From: Escherichia phage ESCO13
Strand: one strand, 5' to 3'
Sequence record: NC_047770.1
DNA length: 64,000 bases
Shown: positions 57,537 through 63,128 of the stretch, in pieces
Numbering within the stretch: position 1 is the stretch's first letter
How the letters are laid out: every line of letters begins with the position of its first letter
Notes under the pieces: generated by a model
What the model saw: only the letters and a program-made list of their open reading frames with translations
The model's database searches: none
What the model was told of the DNA's origin: nothing
Program-made: the position numbers and the translations under genes

Positions 57537-57608
57537 GGCCCTGTAGCTCAATGGGAGAGCTGTCGGCTCATAACCGATAGGTAGCTGGATCGAAACCAGC
57601 CAGGGCCA
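57537..57608 (+). tRNA. tRNA-Met or Ile2 (anticodon CAT)
   Basis: Hand-folded cloverleaf; acceptor ggccctg/cagggcc; loop cuCAUaa; CCA encoded; resembles E. coli tRNA-Ile2 (from memory). Confidence 0.7.
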
Positions 57609-57613
57609 CCAAA

Positions 57614-57685
57614 GTCTTTATGGTGTAATGGATAGCACAGGAGTCTTCTAAACTCTTAGTCAAGGTTCGATTCCTTGTAAAGACA
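57614..57685 (+). tRNA. tRNA-Arg (anticodon TCT)
   Basis: Acceptor gtcttta/taaagac; loop cuUCUaa; T-arm caagg-ttcgatt-ccttg; CCA encoded. Confidence 0.7.
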
Positions 57686-57884
57686 CCAGAACATTTTAAC
57701 ATGAATTAGCTCAAGTGATTTGAACCCACTACTGATCATGGTGGCAGAGAATGAGGCAAGTATGTCAGACATTATAAACAAAGGCCACGGTTATATTAGA
57801 AGACATAAATGCTCGAAGAGCACCGTTCGTGGAGAACGGGGGTTGGTGGAGTCACCATTCATGGTAAAATGTTTTAAAAAACTA

Positions 57885-57914
57885 TTGACAACAAACATTA
57901 TTTTATGTTAGATT
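57885..57914 (+). promoter_or_regulatory. sigma70-like promoter inside the tRNA cluster
   Basis: TTGACA-18-TAGATT. Confidence 0.4.
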
Positions 57915-57922
57915 ATAAGTAT

Positions 57923-58010
57923 GGAAGGGCAAATCGATGTGGCGACGAAAACGGTCTTGAAAACCGCCGAGCTTGAAAGAGCCTTGGGAGTTCGACTCTC
58001 CCTCCTTCCG
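57923..58010 (+). tRNA. tRNA-Ser (anticodon TGA)
   Basis: Long variable arm; loop cuUGAaa; T-arm gggag-ttcgact-ctccc; CCA encoded. Confidence 0.6.
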
Positions 58011-58018
58011 CCAGATTA

Positions 58019-58101
58019 GGTAGATTGGTGAAATGGTAGCCACGACAGTTTGCTAAACTGTAGTCGGAAACGGCGTGTAGGTTCGAGTCCTACATCTACC
58101 G
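58019..58101 (+). tRNA. tRNA-Ser (anticodon GCT)
   Basis: Acceptor ggtagat/atctacc; loop uuGCUaa; long variable arm; CCA encoded. Confidence 0.6.
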
Positions 58102-58234
58102 CCAAGTTCTTTTTAATGTAGCTTACTTTAGCAGAGTAAATCTTCGGCAAGTGGCGGTAACCACTTTACCGATACCTCATAGTTAGTGGTGTGAACACTG
58201 GCTATTTTAAAAAGAATTTAAATATTAGTATTTA

Positions 58235-58319
58235 GGTGAGTTAATTCCGTAGGGGTAGCGGGGCAGACTGTAAATCTGTTATCATTGCGATTCGGGTGGT
58301 TCGACTCCATCACTCACCA
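58235..58319 (+). tRNA. tRNA-Tyr (anticodon GTA)
   Basis: Acceptor ggtgagt/actcacc; loop cuGUAaa; long variable arm; CCA encoded. Confidence 0.65.
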
Positions 58320-58328
58320 CCAAATTAA

Positions 58329-58411
58329 GATGAGTTGGCTGAATGGTTTAAGCGGCGGACTGTTAATCCGTGTTCGAAAGAACAATATAGGTTCGAATCC
58401 TATACTCATCG
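58329..58411 (+). tRNA. tRNA-Asn (anticodon GTT) with unusually long variable arm
   Basis: Anticodon arm gcgga-cuGUUaa-tccgt matches E. coli tRNA-Asn (from memory); extra gttc-gaaa-gaac hairpin in variable region; CCA encoded. Confidence 0.55.
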
Positions 58412-58505
58412 CCAGAATTATGGACTTGTAGAGTTAAGGTAAACCCCCCAGTCGCCAATAGGCTTCTGGAATTGCAGGTATCGAATCCTGCCGAGTCCCA
58501 GCATT

Positions 58506-58577
58506 GCTCCTATAGTATAATGGCTATTACAACGGTTTTGTAATCCGTGGATCTCTGTTCGATTCAGTGTGGGAGCA
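58506..58577 (+). tRNA. tRNA-Thr (anticodon TGT)
   Basis: Acceptor gctccta/tgggagc; loop uuUGUaa; one mismatch each in anticodon and T stems; CCA encoded. Confidence 0.5.
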
Positions 58578-58854
58578 CCAACACAACATTAAGAGCACTG
58601 TGATTGATCGTCGTATCCTGTGCACAAGGTCTGCTCGAAAGACAGTGTTCTTAGTATTGTGTTGATCACAAAAAGAGTCACCCGAAACTTGACCGGAGTA
58701 GGGTTGGATGGGGCAAAATGAGAAGCGGCTCTCCCATCGACAGCAACGAAGAATAATATTTGACTTTGGTTTTGTATTATTTTAAGTTAGCTTACCGAAC
58801 GTAGGGCTAGTCACCCAACGGGATACTCGTCACTGTCCCAATCAATAAAAGTCT

Positions 58855-58883
58855 TGACAACAAATAGTAAAATGTAGTATAGT
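58855..58883 (+). promoter_or_regulatory. sigma70-like promoter upstream of tRNA-Gly
   Basis: TTGACA-17-TATAGT. Confidence 0.5.
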
Positions 58884-58894
58884 AAATATATATG

Positions 58895-58965
58895 GCGTTC
58901 TTGGTGTAGCGGTAGCATTCCGTCCTTCCAAGTCGGCGGCACGAGTTCGATCCTCGTAGAACGCT
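58895..58965 (+). tRNA. tRNA-Gly (anticodon TCC)
   Basis: Acceptor gcgttct/agaacgc; loop cuUCCaa; T-arm acgag-ttcgatc-ctcgt; CCA encoded. Confidence 0.65.
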
Positions 58966-59066
58966 CCAAATTATTTAATAAAGGGTTGCCAGAAAACTTT
59001 CTCTTTTACTCATGGTTTTCTCCTTCTCTCACACTTCTTCTGGTTGCCCTTCATTAAATGATTTAT

Positions 59067-59139
59067 TGGTTTGTAGTGTAGTCCGGTAGCACACGACACT
59101 TTGACTGTCGTAGGTTTGGTTCAAATCCAGACAGACCAG
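59067..59139 (+). tRNA. tRNA-Gln (anticodon TTG)
   Basis: U1-A72 and discriminator G as in E. coli tRNA-Gln (from memory); loop cuUUGac; CCA encoded. Confidence 0.65.
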
Positions 59140-59235
59140 CCATATAACAAAGGTGAGTCACTACCTTAAGTGTGAAGTTAAAAACGAGGAGCCGCCGAAC
59201 ACTTTCTTTTGCGGTGTACCTTTAGAATGTTATCA

Positions 59236-59309
59236 CGGGACGTAGCACAGCTTGGTAGTGCGCTCGCTTTGGGAGCGAGAGGTCGAGTGTTCGAATCACT
59301 CCGTCCCGA
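59236..59309 (+). tRNA. tRNA-Pro (anticodon TGG)
   Basis: C1-G72 start as in bacterial tRNA-Pro; loop uuUGGga; T-arm gagtg-ttcgaat-cactc; CCA encoded. Confidence 0.7.
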
Positions 59310-59318
59310 CCAATTAAA

Positions 59319-59389
59319 TGTTTCGTAGTTCAATGGTAGAACCCACGACTGATAATCGTGAGACACAAGTTCGATTCTTGTCGAAACAA
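59319..59389 (+). tRNA. tRNA-Ile (anticodon GAT)
   Basis: Anticodon arm cacga-cuGAUaa-tcgtg; T-arm acaag-ttcgatt-cttgt; CCA encoded. Confidence 0.65.
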
Positions 59390-59470
59390 CCAGTTTCCCG
59401 TTAGACTTACAGGATAAGAGTTCCACAGCTTATTGTGATGCTGGTTCGAATCCAGCACGGGATACATAAT

Positions 59471-59546
59471 AGCGGGATAGAGGAGTCTGGTCGTCCTCGC
59501 CAGTTTCATATGCTGGAGATCATCGGTTCAAATCCGATTCCCGCCT
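59471..59546 (+). tRNA. tRNA-Met (anticodon CAT), A1-C72 mismatch
   Basis: D-stem gagg/cctc; anticodon arm ccagt-uuCAUau-gctgg; T-arm atcgg-ttcaaat-ccgat; CCA encoded. Confidence 0.6.
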
Positions 59547-59664
59547 CCAAATATCGCTTGCCAGCGGTATCTTTGAAGACCTTGCCTGGTTCCTTCTAAG
59601 ATGGAGGGGTGCGACTCCTTAACGCACAATTATAATAAAGCATTTCAACTTAACAGTATTTACT

Positions 59665-60415: not shown

Positions 60416-60808
60416 ATGAATCTAAAGACTAAAACTGTATTAGGTTTTGTTTTAATTGTTGTTCTTATTCTTGCCGGAATGTTTGCTTATAACAAGATAC
60501 ATGAGTCTGGCTACAAAGATGGTGTTGCCTATCAAGCGCAATTATATCAAGCAGCCCAAGCAAAAGCAAAACAGGATTTTGATGTTCTTCAAAAAAGAGC
60601 AGATGAAGAAAGAGCATTATTAAATACCCAAATAAACAACTTGTCTAAAAACAATGCACAATTAAAAGCAGATTTAGAGAAGAAGAAACAAACGATCAAT
60701 GAGGATACAACGAATTATGCAAAAACTAATTCTGGCAGTATGTCTTGCTTTGCCCCTAATGATGACGGGTTGTTCATCATCAACAAAAGTTTCCCCAGTT
60801 CTTATTGA
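60416..60808 (+). CDS. i-spanin-like protein (N-terminal TM helix plus coiled coil)
   Basis: LGFVLIVVLILAGMFAY TM segment followed by Q/A/K-rich helix. Confidence 0.45.
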   Translation: MNLKTKTVLGFVLIVVLILAGMFAYNKIHESGYKDGVAYQAQLYQAAQAKAKQDFDVLQKRADEERALLNTQINNLSKNNAQLKADLEKKKQTINEDTTNYAKTNSGSMSCFAPNDDGLFIINKSFPSSY

Positions 60809-61043
60809 TGAGTGTAAGGCTGTAGCCATAGAAAAGGTTAAAGGTCCAGATTCGGATTTGATGGATAAAGTATCGACACCTGTGCCATACACTAAAAATC
60901 AAATTGCAAAAGGGGTTAGTAGATCTGAAGTTGTTAACAACCAAACTCAAAACAACGCTCTTTGGGAGCAAGATAGACGAAAGGTTTTAGGTTTACAAAC
61001 ATATATTAAAACACTGCAAGAAAAAGGTATTATTGCTGAATAA
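60699..61043 (+). CDS. o-spanin-like outer-membrane lipoprotein, gene overlaps the i-spanin candidate
   Basis: Lipobox LMMTGC after signal peptide; out-of-frame overlap with 60416-60808. Confidence 0.45.
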   Translation: MRIQRIMQKLILAVCLALPLMMTGCSSSTKVSPVLIDECKAVAIEKVKGPDSDLMDKVSTPVPYTKNQIAKGVSRSEVVNNQTQNNALWEQDRRKVLGLQTYIKTLQEKGIIAE

Positions 61044-61052
61044 GGAGGGAAT

Positions 61053-63128
61053 GTGGCAAAGAAAAAGGCAGCAGGTAGTTTAGCTGGAGTAGATATTGAA
61101 GTAAAGGCTCAACCAGGTAAACAGACTCTTGCAATGGATTTAATGCCAGAAGTTATGATTTATGGTGGTGCCGCTGGATGTGTTTCTGCTGAAACGGAAT
61201 ATCTTACAAAAGATGGTTGGAAACAGATTAGTGAATATTCGGGAGAGGATATTTACCAATACAACCCTAAGAATAAGCGTTTAGAATTGGTAACACCTTA
61301 CTTTGTAGAATACGATTTAAATGGAGATAATCTATACAGAATAACAAATGGTGTAGGATTGTTCCAAGAACTTAGTATGGAACACCGTTTTGTATTCTAT
61401 AAGAAAAAGAAATCAAAGAAACATTTCGAGATTCTTGTAGGAGATCTTATTGCATTACAGCAAATAGGAAAACCCCTGCAAGGTTATGTAGAAAATCCAT
61501 TCGGTAAACGTGTTCCTTTTAACATACCTGGTAAAAAGAGCACTTACTTAAAAATACACGAGGTTATTTCAACAGATGATAAGAAATATTGTTTTGAGAC
61601 TCCAAGCAGCTATATTGTCTTTAGACGTGGCGATCACTGCTTCGTTACTGGGAATAGCGGCAAGTCTCGTCTGCTATTGCTGAAAGCTTTAAAATACGCC
61701 TACAAAGACCCTTTGTTTGGTGGAATACTTTTCCGTAAGAACACCACTGCTCACCGTAAACCAGGTGGTCTGTTTACAGAAGCAAAACGTTTGTATCTTC
61801 CTTTACAACCGCACGTAAAAGAAAGTACAATGGATATCATTTTTGAAGCCACTGGCGGCGGAACCCTCAAATTTGACCATTTGGAAAACGATAACGTAAC
61901 CGCAGAAACAAACCATCAGGGTACACAGTATTCAATGGTAGGTTTTGACGAGTTAACCCACTTCACACAGTATGAAATGCTCTATCTTCTGGGACGTATG
62001 CGTTCAGAATCAGAAACAAGCTTCATGTTGTGCACATGTAACCCCGATGCAGATAGTTGGGTTTTGAATTGGGTACTACCTTATCTCGATGAGGGCGGTT
62101 ATCCTAGAGAAGATATGTGTGGTAAACAAAAATATTTCATCATTGTTAACGATGAACCTGTTTTTGCTGACACACCTGAAGAACTGAAAGAAAAATATCC
62201 AGAAAACTGTTTCATGGAAAACCCTAATACAGGGGAGACAGTTGTTATTGAACCACAAACTTTCGTATTTATCGGTGGGACAATATTTGATAACCCAGAA
62301 TTGATTAGGCTTAACCCTAATTATTTAGCACAGCTTAAATCACAAACAGCAATCAAAAGAGCACAACTCTTGGACGGCTGTTGGTTTGCACGTATACAGA
62401 AAGAGTCTTTCTTCCAACGTGAATGGTTGCATAAGATATCTTATAAAGATGTTCCTAATAATCTTAAACTAATGCGAGCATGGGATAAAGCTGTTTCAGT
62501 TCCTACAGAAACTTATCGTTATCCAGACTATACAACATCTGTCAAAATGGGTAAAGACCAAGATGGTAATATCTACATCTTTGGTGACTATGATTATGAT
62601 GCTGTGGATGAGAAAAGTAAAATTTTCGGAAGGTTTCGAAGATTACCTGGGGAAAGGGATAACCTGATTCTAAATCAATGTAAGATTGATGGACCAGAAG
62701 TTACAGTAGTTCTTCCTAAAGACCCATCTGGTGCTGGGACAATAGAATATACAGAGTCTGCAAAGAAACTTATTCTAGAGGGTTTTGTTGTTAAACCAGA
62801 TGCTATGCCAGGCAACAAGAAAAAGCTTCAGCGTTTTATGCCTTTTAGTAGTGCGTGTCAAAACGGTTTTGTTTATATTGTTGAAGATTCTTTCCCTAAT
62901 GTGGAAACTTTAACCCACTTTTATAAAGAATTGGAATCTTTCAATGGTGAAAGATCTACAGCCACTATTAAAGATGACATTCCCGATGCTGCTGCTTCTT
63001 GTTTCAATACTCTGTCAAAAGAGAATACTTTCAAAGCAGTAGCTATCCCTGCAACAACAAATGCTCCTACAGGATACAGTAGAATGAACAGCGGATTTCA
63101 CCAACCGTATAGTGTCCGTAAAAGATAA
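61053..63128 (+). CDS. terminase large subunit with mini-intein inserted in Walker A (GTG start)
   Basis: Extein junction GGAAG/SGKS reconstitutes Walker A; Walker B-like MVGFDE; about 690 aa directly upstream of probable portal; SD aaggaggg. Confidence 0.6.
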   Translation: MAKKKAAGSLAGVDIEVKAQPGKQTLAMDLMPEVMIYGGAAGCVSAETEYLTKDGWKQISEYSGEDIYQYNPKNKRLELVTPYFVEYDLNGDNLYRITNGVGLFQELSMEHRFVFYKKKKSKKHFEILVGDLIALQQIGKPLQGYVENPFGKRVPFNIPGKKSTYLKIHEVISTDDKKYCFETPSSYIVFRRGDHCFVTGNSGKSRLLLLKALKYAYKDPLFGGILFRKNTTAHRKPGGLFTEAKRLYLPLQPHVKESTMDIIFEATGGGTLKFDHLENDNVTAETNHQGTQYSMVGFDELTHFTQYEMLYLLGRMRSESETSFMLCTCNPDADSWVLNWVLPYLDEGGYPREDMCGKQKYFIIVNDEPVFADTPEELKEKYPENCFMENPNTGETVVIEPQTFVFIGGTIFDNPELIRLNPNYLAQLKSQTAIKRAQLLDGCWFARIQKESFFQREWLHKISYKDVPNNLKLMRAWDKAVSVPTETYRYPDYTTSVKMGKDQDGNIYIFGDYDYDAVDEKSKIFGRFRRLPGERDNLILNQCKIDGPEVTVVLPKDPSGAGTIEYTESAKKLILEGFVVKPDAMPGNKKKLQRFMPFSSACQNGFVYIVEDSFPNVETLTHFYKELESFNGERSTATIKDDIPDAAASCFNTLSKENTFKAVAIPATTNAPTGYSRMNSGFHQPYSVRKR
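61179..61655 (+). mobile_element. candidate mini-intein (about 159 aa) within the terminase gene
   Basis: Starts Cys (CVSAETEYLTKDGW), ends ...FVTGN followed by Ser; no homing-endonuclease-sized insert. Confidence 0.5.

What the first reader, a model, noticed from the sequence alone, without database searches (positions are those of the whole stretch)
61179..61655. Mini-intein splitting the Walker A P-loop of the large terminase
The terminase ORF reads ...YGGAAG then CVSAETEYLTKDGW...HCFVTGN then SGKSRLL. Removing the 159-aa insert (Cys start, Asn end, Ser at +1) gives GGAAGSGKS, a canonical Walker A. The insert is too small for a homing endonuclease domain and lacks the usual penultimate His, so it may be an atypical mini-intein.
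Basis: partly seen in the sequence, partly recalled or inferred. Interest (0 to 1): 0.7.

Follow-up and report, generated by a model that had tools for sequence, protein, structure and literature searches.

The report
Mini-intein in coliphage terminase P-loop
The DNA-packaging enzyme (large terminase) of this phAPEC8-like E. coli phage is interrupted in its ATP-binding loop by a real but unannotated 159-residue self-splicing protein element (mini-intein), from a large, poorly catalogued intein family that carries both the usual first-residue cysteine and the internal cysteine used by "class 3" inteins.

Summary
The observation and the interpretation both hold. Window 61179-61655 is an in-frame 159-aa insert (Cys1 ... 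Thr-Gly-Asn | Ser+1) between GGAAG and SGKS of the large terminase (TerL) ORF 61053-63128. The window is a Phapecoctavirus. Fifty-five intein-less homologues carry an uninterrupted G[AS]AGSGK[ST], and the in-silico spliced protein aligns gap-free to one of them at 64% identity.

Pfam and NCBIfam see nothing in the insert. A profile of the insert family matches the solved AceL NrdHF intein (PDB 6ZGQ, E 3e-12). An AlphaFold model (pLDDT 90) has a HINT fold with 6ZGQ as top structural hit. Longer copies at the same site carry a LAGLIDADG endonuclease. The insert is under the same purifying selection as TerL (dN/dS 0.055 vs 0.060) and is fixed in about 130 phAPEC8/phi92-like genomes, none of which was seen to annotate it.

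The missing penultimate His is a family trait shared with AceL NrdHF, an experimentally confirmed atypical class 3 intein. The window's intein has that whole signature (S-x-x-H-R, Cys at F:4, T-G-N) plus Cys1. Relatives lose either cysteine but never both, so the first nucleophile is unresolved.

It is a new member of a known kind, of moderate interest.

The parts
61053..63128 (+). Large terminase (TerL) precursor ORF, 691 aa, GTG start with AGGAGG RBS. Predicted 78.6 kDa precursor, 60.1 kDa after splicing.
   Evidence: Pfam Terminase_6N on residues 202-460 (E 5e-17). phrog_979 terminase large subunit, E 9e-217. 99.6-99.9% identical to TerL of phAPEC8-like phages.
61053..61178 (+). N-extein (42 aa), ending in the first half of Walker A (...IYGGAAG).
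61179..61655 (+). Mini-intein, 159 aa (18.6 kDa), Cys1 to Asn159.
61179..61220 (+). Block A (CVSAETEYLTKDGW). Cys1, Thr6, Glu7, Gly13 and Trp14 are invariant in the TerL set.
61356..61397 (+). Block B (GLFQELSMEHRFVF): Ser66 (B:7), His69 (B:10, codon 61383-61385), Arg70 (B:11), Phe71 (B:12).
   Evidence: Aligned to S65/H68/R69/M70 of AceL NrdHF. Residue roles from PMC7891396.
61398..61580 (+). Linker region (residues 74-134) at the position where longer relatives carry a LAGLIDADG endonuclease. It is structured in the model (strand, helix 87-95, strands).
   Evidence: No LAGLIDADG or other Pfam match.
61581..61628 (+). Block F (KKYCFETPSSYIVFRR). Cys138 is at F:4 (codon 61590-61592) and there is no His at F:13. 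Lys136, Tyr137, Cys138, Tyr145 and Arg150 are invariant.
61635..61658 (+). Block G (HCFVTGN|S): Thr157 (G:5), Gly158 (G:6, in place of the usual His), Asn159 (G:7), Ser+1.
61656..63128 (+). C-extein (490 aa plus stop). It starts with SGKS (second half of Walker A), followed by the rest of the ATPase and the nuclease domain.

Best explanation
Window 61179-61655 encodes a functional, endonuclease-free mini-intein. TerL is translated as a 78.6-kDa precursor whose Walker A loop is split (GGAAG / SGKS) by a HINT-fold domain. The domain excises itself after translation and joins the two halves with a peptide bond, giving a 60.1-kDa TerL with an intact GGAAGSGKS P-loop and a free 18.6-kDa intein. The late steps are: transfer of the N-extein to Ser+1, cyclisation of Asn159 without a penultimate His (probably helped by Arg70 at B:11, as in AceL NrdHF), then an O-to-N shift. 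The intein descends from a LAGLIDADG-bearing homing intein at the same site. It lost the endonuclease after becoming fixed in the phAPEC8/phi92 lineage (Stephanstirmvirinae). It belongs to a large family defined by Cys1 + [S/T]xxH + Cys at F:4 + [T/S]-G-N + S/C/T at +1. My best guess for the first step is that Cys1 makes the usual thioester (class 1 start), with Cys138 in the active site either relaying the acyl group or acting as a redundant initiator. Shown here: homology, predicted fold, anatomy, selection and distribution. Inferred: that it splices, and by which route.
For: Exact in-frame insert in Walker A; intein-less homologues have the joined motif. Family profile hits the AceL NrdHF intein 6ZGQ at E 2.9e-12 over the full length. 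AF2 pLDDT 90.4 and pTM 0.83; Foldseek's top hit is 6ZGQ (E 1.3e-7, TM 0.72/0.75) and the other listed hits are inteins, Hedgehog or BIL domains. Catalytic positions are invariant across copies only 28-34% identical to the window's. The profile finds 11,409 proteins (2,889 at E<=1e-10), inserted at catalytic sites of TerL, PhoH, primase, RNR large and small subunits, RtcB, SpoVR and a RecD-like helicase. Copies of 301-328 aa at the same TerL site carry two LAGLIDADG motifs, with decaying intermediates. dN/dS is 0.055 in the intein vs 0.060 in the exteins, and amino-acid identity is 88% vs 87%, window vs phi92. The phages are viable isolates and TerL is essential, so the P-loop must be restored (established knowledge; same argument). 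For the Cys1 start: 207 of 215 N-terminal halves have Cys1, and the 4 copies that lack the F:4 Cys all keep Cys1.
Against: There are no experimental data on splicing for this protein. Pfam and NCBIfam intein models give no match even at E<=1-10, and single-sequence search of the PDB finds nothing. The class 1 hallmarks Asp at F:4, His at F:13 and His at G:6 are all absent. The closest characterised relative uses the F:4 Cys, not residue 1, as initiator. Seven relatives with Ala, Lys or Pro at position 1 keep the F:4 Cys, so Cys1 may not be needed here.
Confidence: 0.85

Rival explanations
1. Same intein, but it splices by the class 3 route. Cys138 (F:4) attacks the Gly-Cys1 peptide bond directly and forms a block F branched thioester, which then passes the N-extein to Ser+1. 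Cys1 is dispensable or only auxiliary.
For: The closest solved and tested relative, AceL NrdHF, works this way: C124 at F:4 is essential. The window's intein shares its entire variant signature: S-x-x-H-R in block B, a hydrophobic non-Trp B:12, Cys F:4, a proline at the matching block F position (Pro142 vs Pro128), T-G-N, Ser+1, and no His at F:13 or G:6. The F:4 Cys is present in 196 of 200 C-terminal halves. Seven family members with Ala, Lys or Pro at position 1 all keep the F:4 Cys. These include allelic copies at the same P-loop site (P0168 Pro1 vs P0137/P0155 Cys1) and at the NrdF 'RDE' site.
Against: Cys1 is conserved in about 96% of copies, which is hard to explain if it has no role. 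By the operational definition (no Cys at position 1) it is not class 3. Trp at B:12 is absent. Inteins with Cys1 plus Cys F:4 have been treated as class 1 in the literature. 29% of family copies have Cys+1, which is rare in class 3.
Confidence: 0.3
2. Splicing is conditional. Cys1 and Cys138 (or Cys154) form a disulfide or bind metal, so that terminase maturation, and hence DNA packaging, responds to the redox or metal state of the infected cell.
For: Two active-site cysteines are conserved together across the family. In AceL NrdHF the modelled F:4 thiol lies 3.0 Angstrom from the N-scissile carbonyl. Redox-sensitive splicing through catalytic cysteines is documented for mycobacterial DnaB inteins (abstract, PMC6195587).
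Against: Nothing in the sequence tests this. The E. coli cytoplasm is reducing. Model coordinates could not be inspected. Co-conservation is equally explained by catalysis alone.
Confidence: 0.1
3. The segment is a non-splicing HINT-like domain that stays in mature TerL as a structural or regulatory module.
For: About 130 homologous terminases carry it and it is under strong purifying selection.
Against: It splits the Walker A loop that 55 homologues keep intact. The conserved residues are exactly the splicing residues, including the terminal Asn and the +1 nucleophile. The same domain occurs at catalytic sites of unrelated enzymes and with homing endonucleases. The closest solved relative splices in minutes.
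Confidence: 0.03

Closest known systems
AceL NrdHF intein (PDB 6ZGQ; Hoffmann et al. 2020, PMC7891396)
   Same: Homologous (profile E 2.9e-12; top structural hit, about 20% identity). It has the same S-x-x-H-R block B, non-Trp hydrophobic B:12, Cys at F:4, a proline at the matching block F position, T-G-N C-terminus, Ser+1, and no His at F:13 or G:6. Both are of phage or metagenome origin and of mini size (146 vs 159 aa).
   Different: AceL NrdHF has Ala1 and is naturally split, sitting in an RNR small subunit. The window's intein has Cys1, is contiguous, and sits in a TerL P-loop. AceL is proven class 3, whereas the route here is untested.
Mycobacteriophage TerL P-loop inteins (TerL1-a/b; Kelley et al. 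2016, PMC5050341)
   Same: They are inteins in the Walker A motif of phage large terminases and were shown to splice. The penultimate His is often replaced, for example by Gly, in phage inteins.
   Different: The terminase family differs (Terminase_1 vs Terminase_6 here) and so does the site: TerL1-a lies between the invariant Lys and Thr of the P-loop with TerL1-b one residue away, vs GxxG|SGKS here. Most carry an endonuclease. No detectable close sequence relationship was seen here.
Canonical class 3 (WCT) inteins: MP-Be DnaB, Msm DnaBi1, MchDnaB1
   Same: HINT fold, Cys at F:4, Thr at G:5, Ser/Thr at +1, proposed phage origin.
   Different: They lack an N-terminal nucleophile and have Trp at B:12. 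Here residue 1 is Cys and B:12 is Phe. Structural similarity is lower (TM 0.50-0.58 for 6BS8, 6RIX and 6RIY).
[quoted passage not shown] 2010; Tori & Perler 2011, as cited in PMC3196547)
   Same: The same combination of an N-terminal nucleophile and an F:4 Cys.
   Different: Those were reported as few and polyphyletic. Here the combination defines one large coherent family. Their mechanistic follow-up paper could not be read here.

Membership tests
Intein (HINT-domain protein-splicing element) | In-frame insertion in a conserved host-protein motif, with homologues that lack it and have the joined motif | tested here: met
Intein (HINT-domain protein-splicing element) | HINT fold / homology to known inteins | tested here: met
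   Profile vs 6ZGQ E 2.9e-12. AF2 pLDDT 90.4 and Foldseek hits to inteins, Hedgehog and BIL domains. Pfam and NCBIfam intein models do not match.
Intein (HINT-domain protein-splicing element) | Block B [T/S]xxH, C-terminal Asn, and Ser/Thr/Cys at +1 | tested here: met
   S66-x-x-H69, N159, S+1. Invariant or nearly so in the family.
Intein (HINT-domain protein-splicing element) | Penultimate His (G:6) | tested here: not met
   Gly158. Gly is at G:6 in nearly all 185 family copies. This feature is known to be dispensable: AceL NrdHF G145, where G145H abolishes activity, and the Bethlehem gp51 intein with penultimate Gly.
Intein (HINT-domain protein-splicing element) | Actual excision and extein ligation | not testable with these tools
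   Inferred from the essential role of TerL and the viability of the phages. Needs expression plus western blot or MS.
Mini-intein | No homing-endonuclease domain between blocks B and F | tested here: met
   159 aa, no LAGLIDADG, HNH or other Pfam match, no alternative-frame or antisense ORF of useful size. Relatives of 301-328 aa carry the endonuclease.
Class 1 intein | Cys/Ser/Thr at position 1 | tested here: met
   Cys1, conserved in 207/215 family N-halves.
Class 1 intein | Asp at F:4 and His at F:13 assisting the junction reactions | tested here: not met
   Cys138 at F:4 and Val147 at F:13.
Class 1 intein | Linear thioester at residue 1 as the first intermediate | not testable with these tools
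   Needs C1A/C138A mutagenesis and trapping of intermediates.
Class 3 intein | No Cys/Ser/Thr nucleophile at position 1 | tested here: not met
   Cys1. Hoffmann's operational definition requires no Cys at position 1.
Class 3 intein | WCT triplet: Trp B:12, Cys F:4, Thr G:5 | tested here: inconclusive
   The triplet here is Phe71 / Cys138 / Thr157, so two of three are met. AceL NrdHF is a proven class 3 intein with Met at B:12.
Class 3 intein | Ser/Thr at +1 | tested here: met
   Ser+1.
Class 3 intein | Block F branched thioester intermediate; F:4 Cys essential | not testable with these tools
   Needs biochemistry.
Bacterial intein-like (BIL) domain | Lacks the +1 nucleophile; mainly cleaves rather than splices | tested here: not met
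   Ser+1 is present, and S/C/T occupies +1 in all 185 copies. Not a BIL domain.

The most novel reading that the evidence does not exclude
The window's intein represents a large natural family of 'two-nucleophile' inteins in which both Cys1 and the block F Cys are catalytically competent. They would act either in relay (Cys1 thioester, then Cys F:4 thioester, then Ser+1 ester) or redundantly. Such a scaffold would be the missing evolutionary bridge between class 1 and class 3 splicing. Lineages could lose Cys1 (becoming class 3, like AceL NrdHF, P0186, P0168) or lose the F:4 Cys (becoming plain class 1, like P0154, P0142b) without passing through a non-splicing state. That would contradict the proposal that class 3 arose from a crippled intein rescued by later mutations.
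Probability: 0.35. Interest if true: 0.7.

Novelty: new member of a known kind. Interest (0 to 1): 0.45.

Why it matters
There are three reasons. (1) Annotation: a self-splicing element sits in an essential gene of about 130 sequenced phAPEC8/phi92-like phages, several used in phage-therapy or model collections. None of the records inspected flags it. A careful comparative annotation counted zero inteins in one carrier, and a 2024 paper states that no coliphage inteins have been reported. (2) Detection: the family has thousands of members, yet none of the 11 members scanned reached threshold on any Pfam or NCBIfam intein model, so intein censuses based on those models undercount phage inteins. 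(3) Mechanism and tools: the family combines the class 1 and class 3 nucleophiles on one scaffold. Its only characterised relative is a fast, clean-splicing intein of biotechnological interest. A contiguous 159-aa version that works in E. coli at 37 C is an easy system for asking which cysteine initiates splicing and how class 3 splicing evolved.

Tried and rejected
Pfam and NCBIfam scans of the insert gave no family, even at E<=1 and E<=10. Single-sequence phmmer against the PDB gave only noise, such as a portal protein and a WW domain. The signal appeared only with a profile of the family. Pfam on four long inserts gave LAGLIDADG_3 only below threshold; it passes threshold in two other family members.

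A search for close relatives of AceL NrdHF returned only the crystallised construct and its own C-terminal half. The position of the Ala1 state within the family therefore had to be inferred from the 148 representatives. The key follow-up paper on inteins with an N-terminal nucleophile plus the WCT motif (Tori & Perler 2011), and Brace et al. 2010, are not held, and searches for intein names I recalled found nothing.

A six-frame scan of the whole window with the family profile found no second copy. I considered and rejected a BIL domain (a +1 nucleophile is present), a retained structural domain (see rivals) and a chance feature. Coordinates of the AlphaFold model could not be inspected, so Cys1-Cys138 distances were not measured. 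The absence of copies lacking both cysteines is not statistically meaningful (about 0.15 expected by chance).
Full report
**1. What is in the sequence**

The window is a phAPEC8-like E. coli myovirus (genus Phapecoctavirus, subfamily Stephanstirmvirinae). The ORF in question is 99.6-99.9% identical to the "terminase large subunit" of dozens of such phages. The ORF runs from a GTG at 61053, preceded by AGGAGG, to the stop at 63128 and encodes 691 aa. Spanin genes and a block of tRNA genes lie upstream, and the portal gene lies downstream.

Cys is at 61179-61181, Asn at 61653-61655 and Ser+1 at 61656-61658. It is 159 aa, in frame, between ...IYGGAAG and SGKSRLL.... Pfam places the Terminase_6N ATPase domain on residues 202-460, directly after the insert.

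**2. Is it a real insertion?**

Among the 120 best homologues, 55 (mostly 450-530 aa) have an uninterrupted G[AS]AGSGK[ST]. Thirty-five others are interrupted at this very point by 146-159, 246, 301 or 323-328 residues. Every one of these inserts starts with Cys and ends in [T/S]-G-N followed by SGKS. The in-silico spliced protein aligns to intein-less P0020 at 64% identity over 505 residues, with no gap at the junction.

**3. Is it an intein?**

Standard models fail: Pfam, NCBIfam and a single-sequence PDB search find nothing in the insert. PHROG's terminase profile covers the insert, and a "PhoH-like" PHROG also matches it. That was the first hint of a mobile element shared by different P-loop proteins.

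A profile of 13 mini-forms (A1) matches PDB 6ZGQ, the AceL NrdHF intein, at E 2.9e-12 over almost the full length. Weaker hits go to RecA, gp41-1 and DnaX inteins and a BIL domain. An AlphaFold2 model built on that alignment is confident (pLDDT 90.4, pTM 0.83) and mostly beta-strand. Foldseek against the PDB returns 6ZGQ first (E 1.3e-7, TM 0.72/0.75). After it come Hedgehog autoprocessing domains, Prp8, DnaB, DnaE, RecA and gp41-1 inteins and BIL domains, with 34 hits at E<=0.001.

The longer inserts at the same TerL site contain two LAGLIDADG motifs (LRLQVAVMADGR......DEVxxWDGS) between blocks B and F, with weak Pfam support. An alignment shows a series from full-length copies, through decaying copies (P0058, P0025), to minimal copies such as the window's. 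This is the classic life cycle of a homing intein.

**4. Family and distribution**

An exhaustive profile search of 1.84 billion representative proteins finds 11,409 proteins at E<=0.001 and 2,889 at E<=1e-10. In the 148 best I found 185 complete copies.
- About 85% are 250-400 aa, presumably carrying an endonuclease; LAGLIDADG_3 passes Pfam's threshold in two of them.
- Hosts include Terminase_3, PhoH, a Toprim primase, both RNR subunits, RtcB, SpoVR and a RecD-like helicase.
- A recurrent site is GxxG|[S/C/T]GK[S/T] in several different P-loop proteins.
- No Pfam intein splicing model reaches threshold on any of the nine family members scanned.

In sequenced phages, the window's intein (84-100% identity) occurs in about 130 records of Phapecoctavirus, Justusliebigvirus (phi92) and related Klebsiella phages. 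More distant relatives occur in phage DNA polymerase, RNR, RtcB and other terminase genes. Essentially every TerL that is at least 60% identical in the phage collection carries it.

Between the window and phi92, the intein and the exteins have diverged equally (88% vs 87% amino-acid identity). Both are under the same strong purifying selection (dN/dS 0.055 vs 0.060, with dS near saturation). So this is an old, fixed, vertically inherited and functional mini-intein. Only one copy of the family is present in the window.

**5. Has it been noticed?**

The records inspected (phi92, nepoznato, Bas61) call the gene "terminase large subunit", with no mention of an intein. The feature names shown in the two hit lists never mention one either. 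The BASEL paper says it annotated inteins precisely. Its table nevertheless lists 0 inteins for Bas61, whose 694-aa TerL contains the insert. [quoted passage not shown] No paper in the held library combines phAPEC8 or phi92 with a terminase intein. The library is incomplete, so this is absence of evidence only.

**6. The atypical features and the mechanism**

AceL NrdHF (Hoffmann et al. 2020) is an experimentally confirmed class 3 intein with an unusual signature:
- Ala1.
- Ser65 (B:7), His68 (B:10) and Arg69 (B:11); Arg69 contacts the C-scissile carbonyl and partly compensates for the missing penultimate His.
- Met70 at B:12 in place of Trp.
- Cys124 at F:4, the essential first nucleophile, modelled 3.0 Angstrom from the N-scissile carbonyl.
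- A Pro-Gly kink in block F and no His at F:13.
- Thr144-Gly145-Asn146 followed by Ser+1. G145H abolishes activity.

The window's intein reads Ser66, His69, Arg70, Phe71, Cys138, Pro142, no His at F:13, then Thr157-Gly158-Asn159 followed by Ser. The signature is the same, position for position, except that residue 1 is Cys where AceL has Ala. The missing penultimate His is therefore a family trait with a known workaround.

The family statistics are as follows.
- Position 1: Cys in 207 of 215 N-terminal halves.
- F:4: Cys in 196 of 200 C-terminal halves.
- G:6: Gly almost always.
- G:5: mostly Thr or Ser.
- B:11: Arg in 97 of 185.
- B:12: V/I/M/L/F, with Trp only twice.
- +1: S 109, C 54, T 22.

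The exceptions are informative. Seven copies have Ala (4), Lys (2) or Pro (1) at position 1, and all keep the F:4 Cys. The four copies with Gly or Ser at F:4 all keep Cys1. No copy lacks both.

Some of these are allelic. At the NrdF "RDE|" site, P0154 has Cys1 and Gly at F:4, while P0186 and AceL NrdHF have Ala1 and Cys at F:4. At a "GPFG|...|SGKSS" P-loop site, P0168 has Pro1 and P0137/P0155 have Cys1. The exteins are homologous in each case (49-57% identity). The counts are too small for statistics. The pattern is what one expects if either thiol can start the reaction on this scaffold.

**7. Classification**

By the working definitions it is not class 3, because it has Cys1 and lacks Trp at B:12. 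Inteins with Cys1 and Cys at F:4 have been called class 1 in the literature. It also lacks the class 1 helpers Asp at F:4, His at F:13 and His at G:6.

I file it as an intein and a mini-intein with confidence, and as class 1 by signature only. My estimates for the first step are:
- about 0.55 for a Cys1 start, with or without relay through Cys138;
- about 0.30 for a direct class 3-type attack by Cys138;
- the remainder for a redundant or conditional scheme.

All of this is inference; splicing itself has not been observed for this protein.

**8. Comparison with known terminase inteins**

Inteins in the ATPase domain, including the P-loop, of phage large terminases are well documented in actinobacteriophages and have been shown to splice. 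Non-His penultimate residues are common in phage inteins. The phenomenon is therefore known. What is new here:
- the host group (widely used coliphages);
- the insertion point (GxxG|SGKS, as opposed to the Lys|Thr junction of the P-loop reported for TerL1-a);
- the recognition that this copy belongs to a very large, badly annotated family that straddles the class 1 / class 3 boundary.

**9. Verdict**

It is a new member of a known kind, of moderate interest. There is a more interesting but unproven reading (a two-nucleophile bridge between splicing classes) that a handful of point mutants would settle.

Noticed in passing
L002 (Escherichia phage nepoznato NC_052658.1) 2023-2950; corresponds to about window 62283: In this close relative the TerL gene is additionally interrupted, after ...FIGGT, by about 1 kb carrying an HNH endonuclease gene. 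It is flanked by near-threshold Rfam group I intron matches (47.3 and 27.2 bits; gathering score 50). That phage's terminase gene therefore seems to carry both an intein and a group I intron. The window has no such interruption.
   Followed up: partly
Proteins P0144, P0150, P0194, P0257: At a conserved '...KPN[DS][LI]H|' site, two inteins of this family lie back to back with no spacer. The first ends ...[ST]GN and the very next residue is the Cys1 of the second (e.g. SFVSGN|CLDTKT), so the +1 nucleophile of intein 1 is the first residue of intein 2. The first intein of each pair is one with Ala, Lys or Ser at position 1. The host protein was not identified.
   Followed up: no
Proteins P0121 (2602 aa, 7 matched stretches), P0134 (2583 aa, 9 stretches), P0126, P0131, P0146: Some metagenomic proteins carry three or more copies of this intein family, sometimes only four residues apart (P0121...SGN|SGYQ|CHDEQT...).
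   Followed up: no
window 57537-59549 (+): A cluster of 10 tRNA genes (Met, Arg, Ser, Asn, Thr, Gly, Gln, Pro, Ile, Met) lies about 1.5 kb upstream of the packaging module. The short mechanical ORFs listed at 59178-59599 overlap three of these tRNA genes and are not real genes.
   Followed up: partly
window 60416-61043 (+): Two overlapping ORFs lie just upstream of TerL: 60416-60808, with an N-terminal hydrophobic segment, and 60699-61043, whose product begins with a hydrophobic signal-like segment ending ...LMMTGC (lipobox-like). They match the i-spanin / o-spanin (Rz-like) pair annotated at the same place in phi92, nepoznato and Bas61.
   Followed up: partly
BASEL supplementary table S5 (PMC8594841), phages Bas60-Bas62: Phi92-like phages are listed with 2, 0 and 1 inteins and 1, 0 and 1 introns. 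Other, variably present inteins and introns therefore exist in this phage group besides the fixed TerL mini-intein, which was not counted. Their locations were not examined.
   Followed up: no
window 61179-61655 vs rest of the ORF: The intein is slightly more AT-rich than its host gene (34.4% vs 39.0% GC; window 38.6%), despite long co-divergence with TerL.
   Followed up: no
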